The notes under the pieces were generated by a model. It had not been told where the DNA came from. It did not search any database and saw nothing but the letters and a program-made list of their open reading frames with translations. This document shows, in pieces, positions 49,640-58,768 of a stretch of 64,000 nucleotides of DNA (within the stretch, counting starts at the first letter, position 1; every line of letters starts with the position of its first letter). This DNA is from a virus: the IMG/VR virus record IMGVR_UViG_3300009593_000010, positions 1-64,000 of that record. One strand, written 5' to 3'. The translations under genes and the position numbers were made by a program.

Positions 49640-52600
49640 ATGGCAACAAAAGCAAGATATCTTGCAGACTTATTAAATGCATCTGGGGAGTTAGACTCTA
49701 CTGGTGCAGTTGAGAGTATTCAAGATAACATATCAACATTATTTGCAGCTGGATCACATACAGGTATAGCATTTACCTATGATGATTCAAATGCAACATT
49801 CAGTGCAGCGGTCACACAAGATGCTCAGTCTGCTGGTTTCTATCACAAAGTAACAGTAACAGTTTCTGGCGGAAACTATTTAATGGACGGAACTGCGAAC
49901 GCATCCGTTGTATTATCCCCAAGTGTAACATATAGATTCGATCTATCAGATTCTAGTTGTGCGAATCATCCCCTTAGATTCTCAACAACTTCTGATGGAA
50001 CCCACAACTCTGGTGCAGAAATTTCAGCAGGTTATACAACATACTCTAAGACTGGAACACCAGGCTCAGCAGGTGCATACACACAAGTTTGTTTTGAACA
50101 AGATCAAACAAACCCACTATACTACTATTGTTCTGCACATAGTGGAATGGGTGGAACTGCATTGTTGGGTGTTCATCCAAATACAGACACAATAACAGAA
50201 GGTTCTACAAACCAATATCATACCTCAGAAAGAGTACAAGATATCACTGGTGCCCAGTTGGCAACCAATGGTTCTCATACAGGTATCACAGCAACATATG
50301 ATGATGCTGGTGATGGTGCAATTGACCTTGCACTAGTAACCGAAAATGTAGAAGATATCGTTGGGGCAATGTTCTCATCAAATACCGAAAGCGGTATTAG
50401 TGTCACCTATGAAGATGGTGACGGAACGATTGACCTAGATGTTAATGACCCTACCATTTCCTTAACTGGAGATGTAACTGGTTCTGCAACAATGACCAAT
50501 TTAGGAAACACATCTATTGCTGCCACAATTGCAGCCAATAGTGTTGCAATGGGAACAGACACAACAGGAAATTATGTTGCAACAGTTGCTGGAACAACAA
50601 ACGAGATAACTGTCTCTGGTTCTGGTTCAGAAACTGCAGCCGTAACAGTTTCCCTACCAGATGATGTCACTATAGGTAATGACTTAACAGTAACAGGTGA
50701 GATGGGTTCTGCAACAATTGCTACATCTGGTAATGCAGTAATTGGTGGAAACTTAACAGTTAGTGGTACAACTACTACAGTTTCTTCCTCAACAGTTGCT
50801 ATTACAGATAACAACATGAAGGTTGCAAAAGATAACTCTGCCAACACAACCGACTTTGGTGTCTATGGTGTTTATAACGATGGTTCAACAAGATATGCTG
50901 GTATTAACTGGGATGGAAGTGAATCAGATAAGTTTAGACTCTATCATGGAACAACAACCGAACCAACTACAGTAGTAGACCCTACTGCAACTGGTTGGAC
51001 AAAAGGAACATTAATTGCAGACCTAGAAGGTAATTCTTCAACTGCATCTGCACTTGCAACTGCAAGAACGATAGCAGTAAGTGGGGATGTTGTAGGTTCT
51101 GCATCATTTGATGGTTCTGGTAATATAGATTTATCTACAGTTATTCAAGCAAACTCAGTTGCATTAGGAACTGATACTACTGGAAACTACATGACAGATT
51201 TATCTGCTGGTGAAGGTATAGATATAACTCACACTGCAGCGGAAGGTTCAACTGCAACAATTACAGCAGAGATTGCAACAGACTCAAATAAAGGTGTTGC
51301 CCAATTTAACACAACAGACTTTACAGTAACTTCTGGTGAAGTTGCTATAAACGCAGAAAGAATTCAAGATACTGCTGGAGCAATGTTCACTGGTAATACT
51401 GAGACAGGTATTACAGCAACATATCAAGATGGAGATGGAACTGTAGATTTAGTTGTTAGTGGAACACTTGCAACAATAGTTTCCGATGGTACTGAAGCAG
51501 TACAAGACATTGCTGGTGCAATGTTTACATCTAATACAGAAACAGGTATAACGGCCACATATGATGACAGTGATGGAACGATTGATCTAGTTGTTAGTGG
51601 AACACTTGCAACAATAGTGTCAGACGGAACCGAAGCAGTACAAGATATTGCTGGTGCTCAACTTGCAACTAATGGTTCACACACTGGTATTACTGCAACA
51701 TATGATGATTCAAATGATGGTGCAATTGATCTTGCATTAGTATCAGAAAATGTACAAGATATTGTAGGAGCAATGTTCAGTTCCAATACTGAAACTGGAA
51801 TTGCAGCCACCTATGAAGATGGTGATGGAACTATAGACCTTGTAGTTAGTGGTGCTGCAGCAACAATCGTATCAGACTTCACAGAAGCAGTTCAAGATGT
51901 AGTTGGTGCAATGGTATCATCCAACACAGAAAGTGGTATAGGAGTGACATATGAGGATGGAGATGGTACTTTAGACTTTAATGTATCAGACCCAACATTA
52001 TCTTACACAGGAGATGTAACTGGTTCTGGAACAATGACTGATTTAGGTAATACTAGTATTGCATTAACAATAGCTGCAACATCTGTAGAAAACAGTATGT
52101 TAGCAGGTTCGATTGCAAACAGTAAACTTTCAAACTCAAGTATAACAGTTTCAGATGGTTCTAACTCAACTGCAACTTCATTGGGTGGAACAATAACATT
52201 TGCTGGTACTTCAAACGAAGTAGATGTTGCAGAAAGTTCTGGAACAATTACATATGGACTACCATCTGATGTAACAATATCAAACGACTTAACAGTTAGT
52301 GGAGACTTAACAGTTACAGGTTCAACAACACAAACTGGTTCAATAGTTTCAGATTCAAACTTTACAGGTTTAACAGATGCAAACTCTGGAAATTCAACAG
52401 ACTTTGGTTTCTATGGTAAGTATGTAGAATCATCCACTACAAAATATGGTGGTATATTCTACGATGCATCAACAGATAATACATTTAGATTATTCTCAGA
52501 TACACAAACAGTACCTTCAACTACAGTAAATACAGGTGCAACAGGTTATACTGCTGCTAACTTAGTAGTTGGTACATTAACTGGTAATGTTACAGGTAAT

Positions 52601-53584
52601 GTGACAGGTTCTTTAACTGGTAATGCAACAACAGCGACAACACTTGCAACTTCAAGAAATATAAGTGGTGTAGCATTTGATGGTTCTGCAAATATTACTT
52701 TAGACACAGACGACATTGGTGAAGGTTCAAGTAACCTCTATCATACATCAGAAAGAGTTGCAGATGTTGTGGGTGCGATGGTTAGTTCAAATACCGAGAG
52801 CGGTATTTCTGTAACCTATGACGATTCAGATAATACATTAGACTTTAATGTTGCTGATCCAACAATTGCATTGACAGGAGATGTAACTGGTTCTGCAACA
52901 ATGACTGACTTAGGTAATGTTAGTATTTCCACTTCTCAAGCAGCTGATTCAGTTGATCTAGGTACTCATACAACAGGTAACTATGTTGACAATGTTACTG
53001 GTGGAACTGGTGTTACTGTAACAGGTAGTGCTGGTGAAGGATGGGAACCAGCAATTAGTATTGGACAGGCAGTTGCAACTTCAAGTAATGTGACTTTTGC
53101 AGATGTTGCTGCAACAGGAAATGTAACAATTACTGGTAATTTAACTGTTAATGGTTCTCAGACAACTGTTAACTCAAGTACCCTTTCAGTAACCGACCTA
53201 AATATAATCGTAGGAAAGGATGCATCTACATTGGCTGCAACTGATGGTGCTGGATTAACATTTGGTGCTCATGGTTCTGCACCTACATTTACTTGGGATA
53301 ATGGAAACGCTAGACTAAGTGCAAACAAACAGATTTATTCTTCTGGTGGATTTGTAGGTAATGTAACAGGTAATGCAAGTGGAACCGCTGCTACAGTAAC
53401 AGGTGCAGCTCAAACTGCAATTACAAGTGTAGGAACATTGACTGGACTAGCAGTAAGTGGTGCAGCTACAACCAGTTATACAACGATTGGTTCTAGTGCA
53501 AAAGCATTTAGAAATATCTACATGCATTCATCTGCACCGAGTGGGGGAGATGGGGCCGTAGGTGATCTCTGGATAACATATTAA
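49640..53584 (+). CDS. Long modular tail fibre with a cupredoxin-like domain
   Basis: 1314 aa; repeated QDIVGAM..SNTE.GI..TY.D.DGT.D modules; HPL...YYYCSAHSGM; C-terminal APSGGDGAVGDLW. Confidence 0.8.
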   Translation: MATKARYLADLLNASGELDSTGAVESIQDNISTLFAAGSHTGIAFTYDDSNATFSAAVTQDAQSAGFYHKVTVTVSGGNYLMDGTANASVVLSPSVTYRFDLSDSSCANHPLRFSTTSDGTHNSGAEISAGYTTYSKTGTPGSAGAYTQVCFEQDQTNPLYYYCSAHSGMGGTALLGVHPNTDTITEGSTNQYHTSERVQDITGAQLATNGSHTGITATYDDAGDGAIDLALVTENVEDIVGAMFSSNTESGISVTYEDGDGTIDLDVNDPTISLTGDVTGSATMTNLGNTSIAATIAANSVAMGTDTTGNYVATVAGTTNEITVSGSGSETAAVTVSLPDDVTIGNDLTVTGEMGSATIATSGNAVIGGNLTVSGTTTTVSSSTVAITDNNMKVAKDNSANTTDFGVYGVYNDGSTRYAGINWDGSESDKFRLYHGTTTEPTTVVDPTATGWTKGTLIADLEGNSSTASALATARTIAVSGDVVGSASFDGSGNIDLSTVIQANSVALGTDTTGNYMTDLSAGEGIDITHTAAEGSTATITAEIATDSNKGVAQFNTTDFTVTSGEVAINAERIQDTAGAMFTGNTETGITATYQDGDGTVDLVVSGTLATIVSDGTEAVQDIAGAMFTSNTETGITATYDDSDGTIDLVVSGTLATIVSDGTEAVQDIAGAQLATNGSHTGITATYDDSNDGAIDLALVSENVQDIVGAMFSSNTETGIAATYEDGDGTIDLVVSGAAATIVSDFTEAVQDVVGAMVSSNTESGIGVTYEDGDGTLDFNVSDPTLSYTGDVTGSGTMTDLGNTSIALTIAATSVENSMLAGSIANSKLSNSSITVSDGSNSTATSLGGTITFAGTSNEVDVAESSGTITYGLPSDVTISNDLTVSGDLTVTGSTTQTGSIVSDSNFTGLTDANSGNSTDFGFYGKYVESSTTKYGGIFYDASTDNTFRLFSDTQTVPSTTVNTGATGYTAANLVVGTLTGNVTGNVTGSLTGNATTATTLATSRNISGVAFDGSANITLDTDDIGEGSSNLYHTSERVADVVGAMVSSNTESGISVTYDDSDNTLDFNVADPTIALTGDVTGSATMTDLGNVSISTSQAADSVDLGTHTTGNYVDNVTGGTGVTVTGSAGEGWEPAISIGQAVATSSNVTFADVAATGNVTITGNLTVNGSQTTVNSSTLSVTDLNIIVGKDASTLAATDGAGLTFGAHGSAPTFTWDNGNARLSANKQIYSSGGFVGNVTGNASGTAATVTGAAQTAITSVGTLTGLAVSGAATTSYTTIGSSAKAFRNIYMHSSAPSGGDGAVGDLWITY
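51370..51990 (+). repeat. Tandem 33-36-aa fibre modules (DNA direct repeats of about 100-108 bp)
   Basis: For example ggaacacttgcaacaatagt occurs twice; five successive E.VQD..GA...NTETGI.ATY modules. Confidence 0.75.
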
Positions 53585-53615: not shown

Positions 53616-55190
53616 ATGACTTCAAAGATAAAAACACCAAGTGGATGGGTCGATACCTATGGTATGCGTGTCAAGACGCCTGGTGGTTGGAATAAAGTAG
53701 TTGATGTAAAAAGAAAGACACCTACAGGATGGGTGTTTCAAACTGGTACTATACAGGTTACTCAACCTTATCAACAAACATATCAGCAAGGATATCAACA
53801 ACCATTTCAACAAGGATATCAACAACCTTACCAAGCACAAAATAGTAGACCTTCTAATTATGAACAAACAATTAATAGACCTTCAAGTTATGAGGTAACT
53901 ATTAATAGACCTTCTAGTTATGAGGTGACAATTAATAGACCTTCTAGTTATGAGGTGACAATTAATAGACCTAGTTCTTACGAACAAACTATACCTAGGC
54001 CTGGTTCTTATGAACAAACTATACCTAGACCTGCTAACTACGAACAAACTATACCTAGGCCTGGTTCTTATGAACAAACTATACCTAGACCCACAACCTA
54101 TCAGACACAAAATTATCGTCCACCTACTTATGAACAGACGATACCTAGACCCACAACCTATCAGACTCAAGGCACTAGACCAACATTCTATCAGACTCAA
54201 GGAACAAACTATCGTCCAGCATTCTATCAGACTCAAGGTCAGACCTTCTATCAGACTCAAGGTCAAACATTTTATCAGTCACAGGGTACTAACTATAGAC
54301 CAGCATTCTATCAAACACAGGGTACTAACTATAGACCAGCATTCTATCAGACTCAAGGACAAACATTCTACCAAACACAGGGTACTAACTATCGTCCTAC
54401 AGGTTATCAACAACAGGCTGGAAACTTCTTCTTCCAAATTGGTAAGGGTCAACCAGTCTATGTTCCGTTTTTACAAGTACCAGCAACAAGGCCAAGTATT
54501 TCTGGATTCTATCAAATACAGAATGCACAATTTTATCAGATTCAAAATTCAAGACCTACTGTTCAAGGGTTCTATCAGATTCAAAATGCAAGACCTACTG
54601 TTCAAGGGTTCTATCAAATTCAGAATGCTCAATTCTATCAGATTCAGAATGCTCAATTCTATCAGATTCAAAATTCAAGACCTACTGTACAGGGATTCTA
54701 CCAGATTCAAAATGCAAGACCTACATTCTATCAAATACAGAATTCAAGGCCTGCAAACTATGAAGTAACTATCAGTAGACCTCAGTATTATCAAACTCAG
54801 AATTCAAGGCCTGCAAACTATGAAGTAACTATTAACAGACCTACATCTTATGAGGTAACTATTAACAGACCTACATCTTATGAGGTCACAATTAACAGAC
54901 CGACTTCATATGAGGTAACTATTAATAGACCTACAAACTATGAACAAACAATTAATAGACCTACAAACTACGAACAAACAATTAATAGACCTACTAATTA
55001 TGAACAAACAATTAACAGACCGACTTCATATGAGGTAACTATTAACAGACCTACAACTTATCAGACACCTGCTACAAGACCTGCCACAAGACCTAGTACG
55101 AGACCAGCAACAAGACCTAGTACGAGACCTTCTACTAGACCAGTTGCAACATGGGATGGAGATATCAACAAACCTTGGCCTGCAGATTAG
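53616..55190 (+). CDS. Mirror-symmetric Q/T/Y/R/P repeat protein, predicted giant beta-hairpin fibre tip
   Basis: 524 aa = 49-aa head (three KTPxGW) + 212-aa arm + 32-aa turn + 216-aa arm + 15-aa tail; repeat counts match on both arms. Confidence 0.85.
   Translation: MTSKIKTPSGWVDTYGMRVKTPGGWNKVVDVKRKTPTGWVFQTGTIQVTQPYQQTYQQGYQQPFQQGYQQPYQAQNSRPSNYEQTINRPSSYEVTINRPSSYEVTINRPSSYEVTINRPSSYEQTIPRPGSYEQTIPRPANYEQTIPRPGSYEQTIPRPTTYQTQNYRPPTYEQTIPRPTTYQTQGTRPTFYQTQGTNYRPAFYQTQGQTFYQTQGQTFYQSQGTNYRPAFYQTQGTNYRPAFYQTQGQTFYQTQGTNYRPTGYQQQAGNFFFQIGKGQPVYVPFLQVPATRPSISGFYQIQNAQFYQIQNSRPTVQGFYQIQNARPTVQGFYQIQNAQFYQIQNAQFYQIQNSRPTVQGFYQIQNARPTFYQIQNSRPANYEVTISRPQYYQTQNSRPANYEVTINRPTSYEVTINRPTSYEVTINRPTSYEVTINRPTNYEQTINRPTNYEQTINRPTNYEQTINRPTSYEVTINRPTTYQTPATRPATRPSTRPATRPSTRPSTRPVATWDGDINKPWPAD
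53763..55142 (+). repeat. Coding tandem repeats (12-, 24-, 30-, 36- and 39-bp units) in mirror order
   Basis: For example aatagaccttctagttatgaggtgacaatt repeated; unit lengths are all multiples of 3; direct repeats, not inverted. Confidence 0.95.
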
Positions 55191-55247: not shown

Positions 55248-55871
55248 ATGTTATTAGTATACGATAACGACAACCAATTACATTTAATCAACAGTACAGG
55301 ATTACGATGGAATTATGAGCGTGCAGACAAACCAGACTTAGGTTTCGATTACGATTACCTATTTTATAACCCAACCGAAGATGAAACTTTTGAAATTCAA
55401 GGAAATGTATTTCCATTGAGTCAAGAGCAAATTGATAGTATTGAAGAATATATTAATCTTGCAGAACCACCAGACATCTGTAATCTACAAAATCAATTTA
55501 CAGATGATTTAAAACATCATATTTTTGAACAGTTTGAAAATGGATTCTTTGGTGACTTGGGATATAATGGATGGGGTGATCTTCTTATCACTGCGAGAGA
55601 GGGCTCTAACGACCCATATCGTGCAGAGGCAAGACGATGTTTAGAGTTTAGGGACTTTGTTATGCAATCTTATTATAGATTAAGAGAAGAGATTCTTGCA
55701 TCTGAGGATGCAGACTTACTGCCATTTGAGGATTACATAGGTAAACTACCTATAGTTCCACAGTCAGATTGGTTCTCAAGAGGTGATAGACCTATCGCAG
55801 AACGACTTCAACTACTTGCCGATAGTGATACTTTAGATATCAATGGTGGGGAAGATAGTAGGAGATTCTAA
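55248..55871 (+). CDS. Putative tail-fibre assembly chaperone
   Basis: Directly after the hairpin protein; DPYRAEARRCLEFRD resembles the A.A...WRD helix of fibre-assembly proteins (recalled similarity, not computed). Confidence 0.45.
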   Translation: MLLVYDNDNQLHLINSTGLRWNYERADKPDLGFDYDYLFYNPTEDETFEIQGNVFPLSQEQIDSIEEYINLAEPPDICNLQNQFTDDLKHHIFEQFENGFFGDLGYNGWGDLLITAREGSNDPYRAEARRCLEFRDFVMQSYYRLREEILASEDADLLPFEDYIGKLPIVPQSDWFSRGDRPIAERLQLLADSDTLDINGGEDSRRF

Positions 55872-55874
55872 ATA

Positions 55875-56789
55875 ATGGATATCCATTCATGGATGGACGA
55901 CCCTTTAGACATCGTATATCTTGACAAATCAAAACCATTAGACGAGTTACCCCACAAACAAGCTTGGGTAATCGACAATTTTCTAACTCCAGCAGAGTTC
56001 GCTGCGTGGACGGAGTGGAGAATAGTTCATTCAGACTACAAACTTTCAAATAGAGTTATGCGTGAAGGGGAGATGCAACATCTCTACTTTGGTCAGTCTT
56101 GTTATTTTGCTTATGACCAATTCTTTGAGAGACCAGATGAGGGGTTTCATGAGAGTGTCGAACAAGGAACTAAGGGACAACTTGCAAAGAGACATTGGAG
56201 AAGGATTCAACCAGACTGGAAAAAAAGAGTAATCTCAAGGCCAAATGTTGGACATTGCCACCCAATGTTAGATACTTTTGGTTGGAAACTACAACAACAG
56301 TTTAGATTTGATTGGGTAAGATTCCAGTATTGTGGATTCAATGGTCAGATAACAGGACAAGATGGAACAGTCCATGAGGATACACACAAAGATGGTAGGA
56401 GTGAAAACAACCTTACATTCTTATTCTATGATCAAGAACACTGGGAAGATGACTGGGGTGGAGATTTAATATTTTTTAATTCCGAGTTTCATAATCCAGA
56501 ATTGGGTATAGGAATACCAGAAAACGAGAAGGATTATGAGATAGGACGGATAAAATATAAACCTAATCGTCTTATAGTAGTAAATGGTATGATATCTCAT
56601 AGACATCCAGGCCCTGCAATACCATACGATAAACCAAACTTTCCCTTTAGAACAAGTATGGTCATGAGGGGTGATGAAATTAAACTATGGAAAAGGGGTC
56701 TATATAAACATATAGAATATGATAATGGTAAGTGGGAAACCCTACCAACCCTAAAGGAAGAGTATAAACTATGGACAGAAGAACAGTAA
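55875..56789 (+). CDS. 2OG-Fe(II) oxygenase (prolyl-hydroxylase-like)
   Basis: HED (HxD), W..DWGG.L.F, YKPNRLIV.NG.I.H, RTSMV. Confidence 0.88.
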   Translation: MDIHSWMDDPLDIVYLDKSKPLDELPHKQAWVIDNFLTPAEFAAWTEWRIVHSDYKLSNRVMREGEMQHLYFGQSCYFAYDQFFERPDEGFHESVEQGTKGQLAKRHWRRIQPDWKKRVISRPNVGHCHPMLDTFGWKLQQQFRFDWVRFQYCGFNGQITGQDGTVHEDTHKDGRSENNLTFLFYDQEHWEDDWGGDLIFFNSEFHNPELGIGIPENEKDYEIGRIKYKPNRLIVVNGMISHRHPGPAIPYDKPNFPFRTSMVMRGDEIKLWKRGLYKHIEYDNGKWETLPTLKEEYKLWTEEQ

Positions 56790-57574
56790 TATTAGTCATG
56801 GGATTGCCTGGCTCAGGTAAAACAACCATGTCTGAACAACTAAAGTACCACCTTGATGCAGAACATTTTGAAGCAGATGTGGTTAGAAAGGTCGAAGATG
56901 ACTGGGACTTTAGTGAAAAAGGAAGAATGAAGCAGGTAACTAGAATGAAGAAACTTGCTAAACAGAGTGAAAGTAATTATGTAATATGTGATTTTGTGTG
57001 TCCTTATGTTGAAGGAAGGAAGATTTTAAAACCAGATTACATTGTATTCATGGATACTATTGAGAAAGGAAGGTGGAAGGATACTAATAAACTGTTCCAG
57101 AGACCTAGTAAATCAGAGGTAGATTACATTGTAGAGGACTTTAATGCAGAGTTACATGCAGAAATTATATCCAGAAGTATACTTGCAGACCAGAAATTCT
57201 TTGATGAGAGAGAACCAACAGTACAAATGTTAGGTAGATTTCAACCATTTCATGATGGTCATCTTGAGTTGTTTAAAAGAGCAATCGAGAAAACTGGACA
57301 AGTAAGTATCATGGTGAGGGAAATGCATAGAGCTCAATCAGACCCTTTTGACTTTAAAACAGTCAAACAGAACATAAAAATGTTCTTATTGGGTGATGGG
57401 TACGAAGAAAACAAAGATTATATTATACAGAAAGTGCCAAATATAGTTAACATAACCTACGGAAGAAGAGTAGGGTATGATATAGAAGAAGAAAAATTTA
57501 ATCAAGAGATAGAGGAAGTAAGTTCTACAGAACTGAGAAGACAACTTGGAGTCACGAAGGAAAAGTTTATATAA
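56771..57574 (+). CDS. APS-kinase-like P-loop kinase fused to an HxGH nucleotidyltransferase
   Basis: GLPGSGKTT, AD.VR...D.DFSEKGR, DFVCP; then MLGRFQPFHDGH. Confidence 0.8.
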   Translation: MDRRTVILVMGLPGSGKTTMSEQLKYHLDAEHFEADVVRKVEDDWDFSEKGRMKQVTRMKKLAKQSESNYVICDFVCPYVEGRKILKPDYIVFMDTIEKGRWKDTNKLFQRPSKSEVDYIVEDFNAELHAEIISRSILADQKFFDEREPTVQMLGRFQPFHDGHLELFKRAIEKTGQVSIMVREMHRAQSDPFDFKTVKQNIKMFLLGDGYEENKDYIIQKVPNIVNITYGRRVGYDIEEEKFNQEIEEVSSTELRRQLGVTKEKFI

Positions 57575-57800
57575 GGCTATTACTTACAGAATTTTATCTG
57601 TAATTGCAACTGGATGTATAAGTTATGCTATAACTGGTTCAGTTCAAGTGGCTGGTGCCATAATGTATTTTGATACTATAATAAAACTCTTCTTATTTTA
57701 CTTTCACGAAAGAGCATGGGAACAAGGTATTGCCAAGAAAAGTAAAAACCCTAAAGGGCAAGAATGGAGAAAGGGAACTCTCTGGGATAAAGATTTATGA
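57546..57800 (+). CDS. DUF2061-like small membrane protein
   Basis: ESRRKSLYKAITYR...TIIKLFLFYFHERAW. Confidence 0.8.
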   Translation: MESRRKSLYKAITYRILSVIATGCISYAITGSVQVAGAIMYFDTIIKLFLFYFHERAWEQGIAKKSKNPKGQEWRKGTLWDKDL

Positions 57801-58768
57801 CTACAGAAAATAAGTGTCCAGTTGAACACAAGGTAAATAAAATAAAGTTTCGCACAGCAGACGAAGATGCCTATCGTGATGGAGTCTTTCAACCAGTTCC
57901 AGCATCCAAAGCAAAACCAGAGTGGTATAATAATTTAAGAATCTATAGAGATAACAGTGATAAAAGCTTTGGTAACATGTCTGCAAAGGCATGTCCATCT
58001 ATACATGATTGGTTTCAGAGTGGTTATATCATTAGAACAAACAAGACTATTTTAGTATTACAAGAGTTTGGCCCTCAGATTCTTGAACGAATGCATGAAG
58101 ATGAACTCGCAGAGAAGGCTAGACAGGGTGAAAAAGCAGATCAAAGGGGTTGTGCATTTGTATTAAAGGATGATATCAACACCTTTGAAGAAGCAGAAAA
58201 ATTAAAAGAAAGGTTCTTTGAAACAAAGGAGTTGACACCAAACGATAACTACGATGATTCAGAGATACATCTTCATATTAAGATAGATGCAAGATATAAT
58301 ATCACTGGTGGACATAATGGTGGTCAGTTGTTAGGTTCTCATATGGAAGATAAGATGTCCATTAAGTTTAGAACGCCGTGGACTGTATCAACACCAGAAG
58401 GATACTCTTGTTATTGGTTAGACCCATTCATGCATTATAACCCATATTTCATGACATGGCAAGGGATAATGGATACTGATAAGTGGAATCAAGTTGATAC
58501 TAACTGCATTACTATACTATATCCTAAAATAAAAGGCAACTTTATTATACCAAAAGGAACTCCAATTGTCCAGATAGTTCCTTTCCGAAGGGAACATTGG
58601 GAACATGAACTTGTTTTTGAAGAAGATGGTGTGTTAGATTATATGGACGATCCCATGATAAAAGCAATGGACAGAAGAACCAGATCAAATGAACAAATCA
58701 TTGGTACTGGAGATAACAAAGTAAACCTATATCGAAAGGAGGCTTGGACGCCCAAGAAATTTAAATAA
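57797..58768 (+). CDS. Hypothetical enzyme (DUF6065-like), common near phage oxygenases
   Basis: P.PA.K..PEWY, K.CP.I.D....GYII, KF.TPW...TP.GYS, GIMDTD, IPKGTPIVQIVPF.R..W. Confidence 0.55.
   Translation: MTTENKCPVEHKVNKIKFRTADEDAYRDGVFQPVPASKAKPEWYNNLRIYRDNSDKSFGNMSAKACPSIHDWFQSGYIIRTNKTILVLQEFGPQILERMHEDELAEKARQGEKADQRGCAFVLKDDINTFEEAEKLKERFFETKELTPNDNYDDSEIHLHIKIDARYNITGGHNGGQLLGSHMEDKMSIKFRTPWTVSTPEGYSCYWLDPFMHYNPYFMTWQGIMDTDKWNQVDTNCITILYPKIKGNFIIPKGTPIVQIVPFRREHWEHELVFEEDGVLDYMDDPMIKAMDRRTRSNEQIIGTGDNKVNLYRKEAWTPKKFK

What the first reader, a model, noticed from the sequence alone, without database searches (positions are those of the whole stretch)
53616..55190. A protein that reads like a nucleic-acid hairpin: mirror-ordered, complementary repeats predicting a giant beta-hairpin
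From outside in, the N arm has five 4-mers (xYQx), twelve 10-mers and RP-delimited blocks with 1, 3, 1, 2 FYQ units (12, 28, 12, 20 aa). The turn is AGNFFFQI-GKG-QPVYVPF (GKG at 54441). The C arm then has blocks with 2, 1, 3, 1 FYQ units (21, 13, 29, 13 aa), twelve 10-mers and five 4-mers (xTRP). The 10-mer types are complementary across the axis. N arm from the centre: YQ, EQ, YQ, EQx4, EVx3, EQ, YQ. C arm from the centre: YQ, EV, YQ, EVx4, EQx3, EV, YQ. So EQ always faces EV. One register, i+j=560, places every repeat Tyr/Phe opposite the Arg of an RP over residues 50-189 versus 370-509 (Y52-R508, Y72-R488, R78-Y482, Y182-R378). The DNA arms are direct repeats, not inverted, so the symmetry must be selected at protein level, and each duplication needs a matching one on the other arm. 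Inference: a two-stranded antiparallel zipper about 70-80 nm long if extended, possibly trimerised like the T4 gp37 needle. It would be anchored by three KTPxGW repeats to the preceding fibre and present an aromatic tip loop to the receptor. I know of no description of such a pairing code.
Basis: partly seen in the sequence, partly recalled or inferred. Interest (0 to 1): 0.95.

Follow-up and report, generated by a model that had tools for sequence, protein, structure and literature searches.

The report
Fold-back phage fibre with pairing code
A 524-residue tail-fibre protein of an uncultured marine T4-like phage has two repeat arms that match unit by unit in reverse order under a complementarity rule that 36 relatives keep through paired swaps, so the chain almost certainly runs out, turns and pairs with itself, a fibre design I found in no paper or solved structure.

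Summary
ORF 53616-55190 has 5 four-mers, 12 ten-mers and blocks of 12/28/12/20 aa, then a 32-aa turn, then blocks of 21/13/29/13 aa, 12 ten-mers and 5 four-mers. Every YEQ unit faces a YEV unit.

I found 43 more distinct full-length relatives in marine viral and metagenome contigs. In the 37 proteins with equal arms:
- 668 of 671 mirrored unit pairs have the same length (shuffles give 420).
- 571 are complementary (shuffles give 155; parallel order gives 120).
- Close relatives differ by 39 two-arm compensatory swaps against 20 one-arm changes.
- The tip diversifies (37% identity) while both termini stay conserved (84-88%).

A sister family encodes the two arms as two adjacent genes. Their lengths track each other (r = 0.98) and they obey their own mirror code, so the arms also pair in trans.

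The best reading is an out-and-back antiparallel fibre, like the T4 gp37 needle stem in topology but four to five times longer and modular. Covariation favours register i+j of about 558, not 560. Not established: trimer state, beta-ribbon geometry and docking.

This scan has noted the same design on other phage DNA. I found no paper describing it.

The parts
53616..55190 (+). Whole gene for the fold-back fibre protein, 524 aa plus stop
   Evidence: 43 further distinct full-length relatives
53616..53762 (+). N-terminal domain (res 1-49) with three KTPxGW repeats spaced 14 residues apart; proposed adaptor to the preceding fibre
   Evidence: Mean pairwise identity 88% across the family. The same domain heads the two-gene family and proteins with other C-terminal domains, and in 58 of 70 loci it sits directly after a gene ending ...DGAVGD[LM]W[IV]LYS.
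53766..53825 (+). Outer N arm: five xYQQ four-mers (res 51-70), facing the five xTRP four-mers
   Evidence: five C-side four-mers in all 44 relatives, and the same N-side count in each (the script's regex returns about 4)
53826..54182 (+). N arm 10-mers (res 71-189; the first unit shares Q70), pattern xxY-E/Q-x-T-I-x-R-P
   Evidence: The weak AF2 model puts 7-residue strands at 141-185.
54183..54398 (+). Inner N arm: RP-delimited blocks of 12/28/12/20 aa built from FYQTQG-type 8-mers (res 190-261)
   Evidence: these face the FYQIQN-type blocks of the C arm
54399..54494 (+). Tip or turn block (res 262-293), aromatic and Gly-Lys-Gly centre; proposed receptor-contact end
   Evidence: Tip blocks are 29-72 aa long and only 37% identical on average across the family.
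54495..54722 (+). Inner C arm: blocks of 21/13/29/13 aa built from FYQIQN-type 8-mers (res 294-369)
   Evidence: each block is one residue longer than its N-arm partner
54723..55082 (+). C arm 10-mers (res 370-489), the mirror complement of the N-arm 10-mers
   Evidence: The weak AF2 model puts strands at 383-427.
55083..55142 (+). Outer C arm: five xTRP four-mers (res 490-509)
55143..55190 (+). Conserved C-terminal tail (W-D-G-D-x-x-K-P-W) plus stop; expected to end next to the N-domain
   Evidence: 84% mean identity; a homologous tail ends gene 2 of the two-gene family
49640..53584 (+). Preceding 1314-aa fibre protein with a conserved C-terminal end; proposed docking partner
   Evidence: PHROG tail-fibre hits; C-terminal motif conserved upstream in both families
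55248..55871 (+). Conserved 207-aa neighbour of unknown function; candidate assembly factor
   Evidence: Found downstream in 48 of 50 hairpin loci and in 45 of 88 sister loci. AF2 pLDDT 78, no significant PDB fold match, no Pfam or PHROG hit.

Best explanation
This is the most distal protein of a tail fibre of an uncultured marine T4-like myovirus.

Shown: the N arm (about res 51-261) and the C arm (about res 294-509) correspond unit for unit in reverse order. Mirrored units have matched lengths and complementary types. This correspondence is maintained by selection.

Inferred mechanism:
- The chain leaves the N-terminal KTPxGW domain, which docks on the conserved C-terminal end of the preceding 1314-aa fibre.
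- It runs outward as short beta-strand segments punctuated by Arg-Pro.
- It forms a small variable tip that meets the host receptor.
- It returns antiparallel, so the conserved C-terminal tail ends beside the N-domain.
- Register is fixed by a per-unit code. At the central inward-facing position a hydrophobic V or I in one arm faces a polar Q or T in the other (YEV/YEQ, YQIQN/YQTQG). Two-residue insertions or deletions are matched at the same height.
- The non-periodic order of unit types works like a barcode, so that a slipped register is mismatched.

The rod is probably several tens of nanometres long. It may be a homotrimeric six-stranded needle like the T4 gp37 stem, but the oligomeric state is unknown.
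For: - Exact mirror anatomy in the window.
- In the 37 proteins with equal arms (the window's and 36 relatives), 668 of 671 mirrored unit pairs have equal length and 571 are complementary. Shuffles give 420+-8 and 155+-10, parallel order gives 120 complementary, and sliding by one unit gives 180-195.
- There are at least 24 different length architectures, each palindromic.
- Between nearest neighbours there are 39 swaps on both arms that keep complementarity, against 20 one-arm changes.
- Q/V switches need at least 2 nucleotide changes and carry a linked Glu codon, so types spread as copied modules.
- Residue covariation is anti-diagonal: 5-5 (Q/V), 1-8 and 8-1 (A with P, T with N). The same-index pairs 1-1, 2-2 and 8-8 show none, which argues against a lineage effect; 3-3 (Tyr/Phe) does covary and is unexplained.
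- Units of 14 aa or less: 1783 have even length and 4 odd, as expected for continuous two-faced beta strands.
- Tip identity is 37%, against 88% and 84% for the termini.
- Two-gene relatives show arm lengths with r = 0.98 over 247-585 aa and their own mirror complement. Of 1138 unit pairs, 861 have the same length (shuffles 441) and 641 are complementary (shuffles 363). Parallel order is at chance.
- AF2 places beta strands only in segments 141-185 and 383-427.
- Genomic setting: the tail-fibre block of a T4-like phage.
Against: - There is no structure. The AF2 monomer has mean pLDDT 45 and pTM 0.23, and I could not see its contacts. Foldseek found nothing.
- Seven of 44 relatives have unequal arms.
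- No read or contig spans the array.
- In the window itself the inner C-arm blocks are each one residue longer than their partners, so bulges must be assumed.
- Beta-ribbon geometry, docking, receptor binding and the trimer are all inferences.
- The window protein has no His, so gp37-type metal sites cannot stabilise it.
Confidence: 0.72

Rival explanations
1. Two-layer cross-beta (serpentine) rod. Each arm folds into its own beta-meander, with strands perpendicular to the long axis and Arg-Pro-x-x as turns. The chain goes out along one sheet and back along the other. Mirrored units therefore stack face to face, giving a rod about 10 nm long instead of a needle of tens of nanometres.
For: - The AF2 model shows 7-residue strands separated by 3-residue breaks at Arg-Pro. 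That pattern fits a meander as well as a kinked ribbon.
- Pro, Gly and Asn at unit ends are typical turn formers (own knowledge).
- This arrangement would also give mirror order and central-position complementarity.
Against: - Near-absolute length matching (668 of 671) and even-only unit lengths (1783 against 4) are needed for a continuous register but not for stacked hairpins.
- Four-residue units (5 + 5 in every member) are too short to form a strand plus a turn.
- Gene pairs of up to 585 and 540 aa keep the rule.
Confidence: 0.12
2. Intermolecular pairing. The N arm of one chain pairs with the C arm of another chain, as an antiparallel dimer or a domain-swapped assembly, rather than folding back within one chain.
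For: - Sequence covariation cannot tell cis from trans pairing.
- The sister family demonstrably supplies the two arms as separate polypeptides.
Against: - A non-repetitive, hypervariable 29-72 aa block always sits exactly between the arms, as a loop or tip would.
- The window tip resembles the end of gene 1 joined to the start of gene 2 of the split family (my reading). This suggests the same geometry with the tip closed.
- A bipolar rod with an adaptor at both ends does not suit a fibre terminus.
Confidence: 0.08
3. A disordered or polyproline-like low-complexity spacer, extensin-like and perhaps hydroxylated by the neighbouring 2OG oxygenase, with no specific arm pairing. On this reading the symmetry is incidental or an assembly artefact.
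For: - Composition-driven Pfam hits: Extensin_1 at 49.7 bits against a cut-off of 105, and Keratin_B2.
- Low AF2 confidence.
- A 2OG-Fe(II) oxygenase-like gene is conserved downstream.
Against: - The mirror complement exceeds all 2000 shuffles (z about 43) and is maintained by compensatory swaps in independent assemblies.
- Misassembly breaks the symmetry rather than creating it. L057 is L016 with its arms short-circuited.
- No DNA inverted repeat could produce the pattern.
Confidence: 0.03

Closest known systems
Needle (domains D10-D11) of the phage T4 long-tail-fibre protein gp37 (PDB 2XGF, Bartual et al. 2010, from my own knowledge; residue ranges from PMC6957217)
   Same: - It is the distal end of a T4-type fibre.
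- The chain goes out (stem 882-931), forms a small tip (932-959) and returns (960-1009).
- The arms are of equal length and both ends lie in one proximal domain.
- The tip binds the receptor.
- Some relatives of the window protein carry mirrored HxH clusters like the seven iron sites of gp37.
   Different: - There is no detectable sequence or profile similarity.
- The arms are about 210-240 aa instead of 50.
- They are built from discrete 4/8/10/12-aa modules with a type-complementarity code and compensatory covariation. The gp37 stem shows no repeats or code.
- The window protein has no His.
- No gp10/11/12-type collar was detected.
- The trimer is untested.
Streptococcal antigen I/II adhesins (SpaP, BspA; Larson et al. 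2010 as summarised in PMC7732690)
   Same: - A single chain folds back, so an N-side repeat region and a C-side repeat region intertwine into a stalk longer than 50 nm.
- The stalk presents a variable head at the fold.
- Tyr residues interlock with the proline-rich arm.
- The N- and C-terminal parts lock together.
   Different: - There the arms are an alpha-helix (Ala-rich heptads) and a polyproline-II helix with three long repeats each.
- Here both arms are related short modules that the weak AF2 model places as beta strands, 19-20 or more per arm, with a one-to-one type code.
- That protein is a cell-wall adhesin of bacteria, not a phage fibre.
SMC/Rad50-type intramolecular antiparallel coiled coils (own knowledge, not tested here)
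   Same: A long rod is made by the N- and C-terminal arms of one chain running antiparallel, with a hinge or hook at the fold. Arm lengths are kept matched in evolution.
   Different: Those rods are alpha-helical coiled coils with heptad logic. They have no discrete tandem modules and are not virion proteins.

Membership tests
T4 gp37 needle (D10-D11) | Out-and-back topology: two equal arms around a tip insertion | tested here: met
   This holds at sequence level only. Arms are mirrored unit for unit in the window and in 36 relatives with equal arms. The gp37 arms are 50 + 50 aa.
T4 gp37 needle (D10-D11) | Sequence or profile similarity to gp37 or any solved fibre | tested here: not met
   The family profile against all PDB sequences gave one chance hit at E = 1.1. 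Pfam gave only composition hits. Foldseek on the low-confidence model gave none.
T4 gp37 needle (D10-D11) | His-x-His motifs that coordinate iron on the trimer axis | tested here: not met
   The window protein has 0 His. Relatives L001, L002, L003, L011, L013 and L014 have 4-6 HxH in mirrored 51-aa blocks.
T4 gp37 needle (D10-D11) | Homotrimer with six intertwined strands | not testable with these tools
The AF2 monomer was of low confidence.
Antigen I/II fold-back stalk | Alpha-helical Ala-rich arm paired with a polyproline-II arm | tested here: not met
   The AF2 model contains no helices, only beta strands. There are no Ala-rich heptads. The description of the family comes from PMC7732690.
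Pfam Extensin_1 / Keratin_B2 | Score above the curated cut-off with a matched domain | tested here: not met
   Extensin_1 scored 49.7 bits against a cut-off of 105. Keratin_B2 scored 30.1 against 28.7, but no stretch passes on its own and the protein has no Cys. These are compositional matches.
Mirror-complementary fibre arms (the family defined here) | KTPxGW N-domain, arms with mirrored lengths and complementary types, W-D-G...W tail, position directly after the fibre gene | tested here: met

The most novel reading that the evidence does not exclude
These phages use a natural peptide pairing code. Short sequence modules recognise a specific complementary module across an antiparallel interface, with a tolerated 'wobble' (YEQ facing YEQ, 26 cases against 6 for YEV facing YEV). 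The order of modules then sets the register of a very long, thin beta needle. The code works within one chain or between two separately encoded chains, and it evolves by compensatory module swaps much as an RNA stem does.
Probability: 0.55. Interest if true: 0.95.

Novelty: new variant of a known kind. Interest (0 to 1): 0.88.

Why it matters
If the structure is confirmed, three things follow.
- This would be a protein whose long-range pairing can be read from sequence like an RNA stem. It has unit-level complementarity, compensatory changes and a wobble-like intermediate. It would be a natural template for designing register-specific beta zippers and long rigid nanofibres.
- It would define the host-recognition end of an abundant group of uncultured marine T4-like phages. 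Their nearest cultured relatives infect OM43 and SAR11 bacteria (about 40-43% identity in gp6).
- It poses a clear evolutionary problem. Two direct-repeat arrays must expand, contract and switch types in step, in one gene or across two genes.

Tried and rejected
There is therefore no test of the trimer or of arm binding.
- **AF2 monomer with a 37-sequence alignment** had low confidence (pLDDT 45). I use it only as a weak hint. Foldseek against the PDB gave nothing.
- **Word-indexed protein search** found only an N-terminal fragment fused to a peptidase M16 part on a 1.7-kb contig, probably an assembly chimera, plus two unrelated TRP-repeat proteins.
- **HMMER against 1.84 billion representatives** returned no full-length member. 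It returned only fragments, unrelated repeat proteins and the Hint-bearing sister family.
- **Cultured phages (INPHARED)** hold no homologue of the protein, of its N-domain or of the 207-aa neighbour.
- **Reads.** Only Logan contigs were on offer. They tile the array in pieces of 60-530 nt, most of them letter-perfect, but none bridges it. One contig in X2 skips 190 nt at depth 2.7. This neither confirms nor refutes the repeat count.
- **DNA palindrome as the cause** is rejected. There are no inverted repeats.
- **The 207-aa neighbour** gave a fair model (pLDDT 78) but no significant fold match. The best hit was a cyanophage Pam3 fibre chain at E = 0.41.
- **Register i+j = 560** is not favoured by covariation.
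Full report
**The observation**

The ORF at 53616..55190 (+) encodes 524 residues.
- A 49-residue N-terminal part carries three KTPxGW repeats.
- The N arm has five xYQQ four-mers. It then has twelve 10-mers in the order YQ, EQ, EVx3, EQx4, YQ, EQ, YQ, and blocks of 12/28/12/20 aa.
- The turn is 32 aa. Its Gly-Lys-Gly starts at nt 54441.
- The C arm has blocks of 21/13/29/13 aa. It then has twelve 10-mers in the order YQ, EV, YQ, EVx4, EQx3, EV, YQ, and five xTRP four-mers.
- A 15-aa tail ends the protein.

Read from the centre outward, every EQ unit faces an EV unit, and every TQG-type unit or block faces an IQN-type one. The protein has no His and no Cys.

At DNA level both arms are direct tandem arrays and there is no inverted repeat. 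The symmetry therefore exists only in the protein.

By my hand count, reordering the C arm's four blocks and twelve 10-mers within their own zones gives the observed complement in 1 of 221,760 arrangements.

**Relatives**

A scan of IMG/VR gave 9 loci and a scan of JGI/ENA metagenome contigs gave 56 more. From these I extracted 44 distinct full-length proteins of 226-604 aa, counting the window's.

I paired the RP-delimited units from the outside inward, which needs no assumption about where the centre lies. Thirty-seven proteins have arms with equal unit numbers.

| Measure, over 671 unit pairs | Observed | Control |
|---|---|---|
| Same length | 668 | 420 +- 8 in 2000 within-protein shuffles |
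| Complementary type | 571 | 155 +- 10 in shuffles; 120 in parallel order; 180-195 when slid by one unit |

The complementary classes are:
- YEQ with YEV
- YQTQG with YQIQN
- 8-mers of the xQVQN type with the xNYQT type
- 12-mers with an N-side YN insertion facing 12-mers with a C-side insertion

The family contains at least 24 different length architectures, and each one is palindromic.

Among nearest neighbours with the same architecture, 39 positions changed on both arms and were complementary before and after. Only 20 changed on one arm. Examples are L006 against L007 and L005 against L009. EQ facing EQ is the commonest mismatch (26 cases, against 6 for EV facing EV), so it looks like a tolerated intermediate.

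A Q/V switch needs at least two nucleotide changes. EQ units always carry a GAA Glu codon and most EV units carry GAG. Same-type units in the other arm are more alike in DNA (74%) than different-type units in the same arm (68%). Types are therefore copied modules, not point mutants.

**Register and geometry**

Within Glu-type 10-mer pairs, mutual information is concentrated at three position pairs:
- 5 with 5 (Q/V)
- 1 with 8
- 8 with 1 (Ala with Pro, Thr with Asn)

Positions 1-1, 2-2 and 8-8 show none. A lineage effect would raise all of them, so I read this as anti-diagonal contact information. Position 3-3 (Tyr/Phe) does covary, which I cannot explain. In the window protein the anti-diagonal signal corresponds to i+j = 557-558, not 560. 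The two registers have the same parity.

Unit lengths of 14 aa or less are even in 1783 cases and odd in 4. Two-residue insertions and deletions sit at mirrored ends of the paired units. Both facts are what a continuous two-faced beta strand needs to keep its faces and register. Neither is required if each unit were an independent strand in a stacked meander. For this reason I prefer the extended ribbon over the cross-beta rival, but this is inference.

**Structure prediction**

AF2 with the 37-sequence alignment gave mean pLDDT 45 and pTM 0.23. Its only strands, at pLDDT 60-67, are 7-residue segments at 141-185 and 383-427. If 141-147 is matched with 411-417, these segments mirror each other with a sum of 558. 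The tool does not show contacts, so this is only a hint.

Foldseek against the PDB found nothing, and a family profile finds no solved relative. The ESM Atlas holds the sequence with a similarly weak model (pLDDT 0.54) in an all-viral cluster of 65 members. The complex predictor was closed, so the trimer was not tested.

**Setting**

The window is part of a 129.6-kb IMG/VR virus record. It carries a T4-type baseplate and fibre block. Its gp6 is 40-43% identical to those of Methylophilales phage Melnitz and Pelagibacter phages Mosig and HTVC008M. This places the gene in the fibre part of what PMC7029224 calls the host recognition cluster of pelagimyophages.

Gene order is conserved. A large fibre gene ending in a conserved ...DGAVGD-W-x-x-Y motif comes first. 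The fold-back gene follows, and then a gene of about 211 aa. N-domain identity averages 88%, the C tail 84% and the tip block 37%, and tip length ranges from 29 to 72 aa. The distal turn is therefore the diversifying part, as expected for a receptor-contact site.

**A two-gene version**

The HMMER search turned up proteins of 436-446 aa. They have the same N-domain, a different repeat arm and a C-terminal Hint/intein-like domain with no +1 nucleophile. The Hint part resembles helicase inteins.

The gene directly downstream is a pure repeat arm. It ends in a tail homologous to the window protein's C tail. The gene upstream ends in the same fibre motif.

A further IMG/VR scan gave 80 loci, and many of them have the two-gene layout without any Hint domain. 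Across 35 distinct gene pairs, the arm part of gene 1 and the length of gene 2 correlate with r = 0.98 over 247-585 aa. The difference is 44-46 aa in about half of the pairs, which is the size of the N-domain.

I paired gene 1 read N-to-C with gene 2 read C-to-N, using crude Pro-delimited units.

| Measure, over 1138 unit pairs | Observed | Control |
|---|---|---|
| Same length | 861 | 441 +- 15 in shuffles; 397 in parallel order |
| Complementary (PFTY-type facing IAN/PAN-type) | 641 | 363 +- 12 in shuffles; 364 in parallel order |
| Same type | 59 | not computed |

The same principle therefore operates between two polypeptides, with a different alphabet. The window protein is the single-chain form. 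Its tip even resembles the end of gene 1 joined to the start of gene 2 (my reading).

The KTPxGW gene follows the conserved fibre end in 58 of 70 loci. These include variants with unrelated C-terminal domains. This supports, but does not prove, an adaptor role for the N-domain.

**Mechanism**

- Shown: mirrored, complementary, co-evolving arms; a variable centre; conserved ends; conserved position behind a fibre gene.
- Inferred: the chain runs out and back as an antiparallel beta structure, and its register is fixed by the order of complementary modules. The N-domain docks on the preceding fibre, and the C tail packs beside the N-domain. The tip meets the receptor.
- Length: taking roughly 210-225 residues per arm at about 3 Angstrom per residue (my estimate), the rod would be 60-70 nm long.
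- Oligomeric state: a trimeric six-stranded needle is attractive by analogy with gp37. Several relatives also carry mirrored 51-aa His-rich blocks with HxH motifs. These blocks are themselves self-complementary, with three TQG-like then three IQN-like 8-mers. The window protein has no His, and its oligomeric state is open.

**Comparison with known systems**

- The T4 gp37 needle has the same topology: stem 882-931, tip 932-959, stem 960-1009, with the collar built from both ends (PMC6957217). Its 50-aa arms show no repeats or code, and there is no sequence similarity.
- Antigen I/II adhesins are a monomeric fold-back stalk of an alpha-helix and a PPII helix with a variable head (PMC7732690). 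They share the logic but not the secondary structure or the modular code.
- SMC/Rad50 coiled coils share the matched antiparallel arms (own knowledge).

Full-text searches for related descriptions found none.

**Caveats**

- Seven of 44 relatives have unequal arms. L057 is plainly L016 with the two arms short-circuited on a 1.1-kb contig. L040 and L053 come from the same assembly project as the intact L035. Collapse of direct repeats is the likely cause, but real variants cannot be excluded.
- No read or contig bridges the window's array.
- The relatives are related to one another, so pair counts are not independent events. The compensatory-swap count and the number of architectures are the better measures.

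**Earlier notes of this scan**

After my analysis I looked up the scan's notes. The same design has been noted on other phage DNA in at least 32 genomes, including split two-protein forms and a 532-aa member of this family. Those notes agree with what I tested here. One gave me the antigen I/II comparison. Another note on this genome proposes that the downstream genes mature the protein. I only confirmed that the 207-aa, 2OG-oxygenase-like and kinase-nucleotidyltransferase genes are conserved downstream.

Noticed in passing
L069:6001-7977, L073:6001-8026, and L077-L156 (sister loci): There is a two-gene version of the fibre. Gene 1 has the KTPxGW N-domain plus a repeat arm. Gene 2 has the complementary arm plus a W-D-G...W tail. 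Lengths track each other (r = 0.98 in 35 pairs) and the units are mirror-complementary in trans.
   Followed up: yes
L069:6001-7311 (P0118); also P0121, P0142, L077-L080, L091, L100, L104, L119, L120, L147: In some two-gene forms, gene 1 ends in a Hint/intein-like domain (Gly-Gly, then Cys...His-Asn plus a short tail, with no +1 nucleophile) placed exactly at the tip end of the arm. It may cleave itself off or ligate the arm. The domain is 35-37% identical to inteins in phage helicase genes.
   Followed up: partly
window 55248-55871: A conserved 207-aa protein lies directly downstream. It is present in 48 of 50 hairpin loci and 45 of 88 sister loci. The AF2 model is fair (pLDDT 78: an N-terminal six-strand part plus helices). 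There is no Pfam, PHROG or significant PDB fold match. It is a candidate assembly factor.
   Followed up: partly
window 55875-58768: A 2OG-Fe(II) oxygenase-like gene (below the Pfam cut-off), a gene with APS-kinase-like P-loop and cytidylyltransferase-like Pfam matches, and two further ORFs are conserved downstream in about 31-40 of 50 hairpin loci. Whether they modify the Pro/Tyr/Thr-rich fibre, for example by Pro hydroxylation, is untested.
   Followed up: partly
L001:1020-2591, L002:6001-7572, L003:6001-7812, L011, L013, L014: Relatives carry two mirrored 51-aa His-rich blocks with 4-6 HxH motifs in all. Each block consists of three TQG-like then three IQN-like 8-mers, so it is self-complementary like a palindromic site. 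These are possible metal sites as in T4 gp37. The window protein has no His at all.
   Followed up: partly
window 53616-55187; L001, L002, L011, L013, L014: Six proteins with clearly different internal unit orders are all exactly 524 aa long. This suggests a constraint on total fibre length.
   Followed up: no
L057:64-741, L039, L040, L053, L036, L045, L028: Seven assemblies have unequal arms. L057 equals L016 with an internal deletion joining the N arm to the C arm. Direct repeats shared by the two arms invite assembler collapse, or real recombination.
   Followed up: partly
L133, L142-L156 (gene 1 positions): The same KTPxGW N-domain heads proteins of 454-516 aa that end in unrelated, non-repeat C-terminal domains. 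These proteins also sit behind the conserved fibre end. The N-domain looks like an exchangeable adaptor module.
   Followed up: partly
P0001 (ENA contig of 1691 nt): The N-domain and four-mers of a close relative (79% identity) are fused to a peptidase M16 part. This is probably an assembly chimera that broke inside the repeats.
   Followed up: no
window 54010-54768 (+), 53883-54266 (-), 53622-53867 (-): Long open frames lie in other frames across the array. They are by-products of the repeats, not genes.
   Followed up: no
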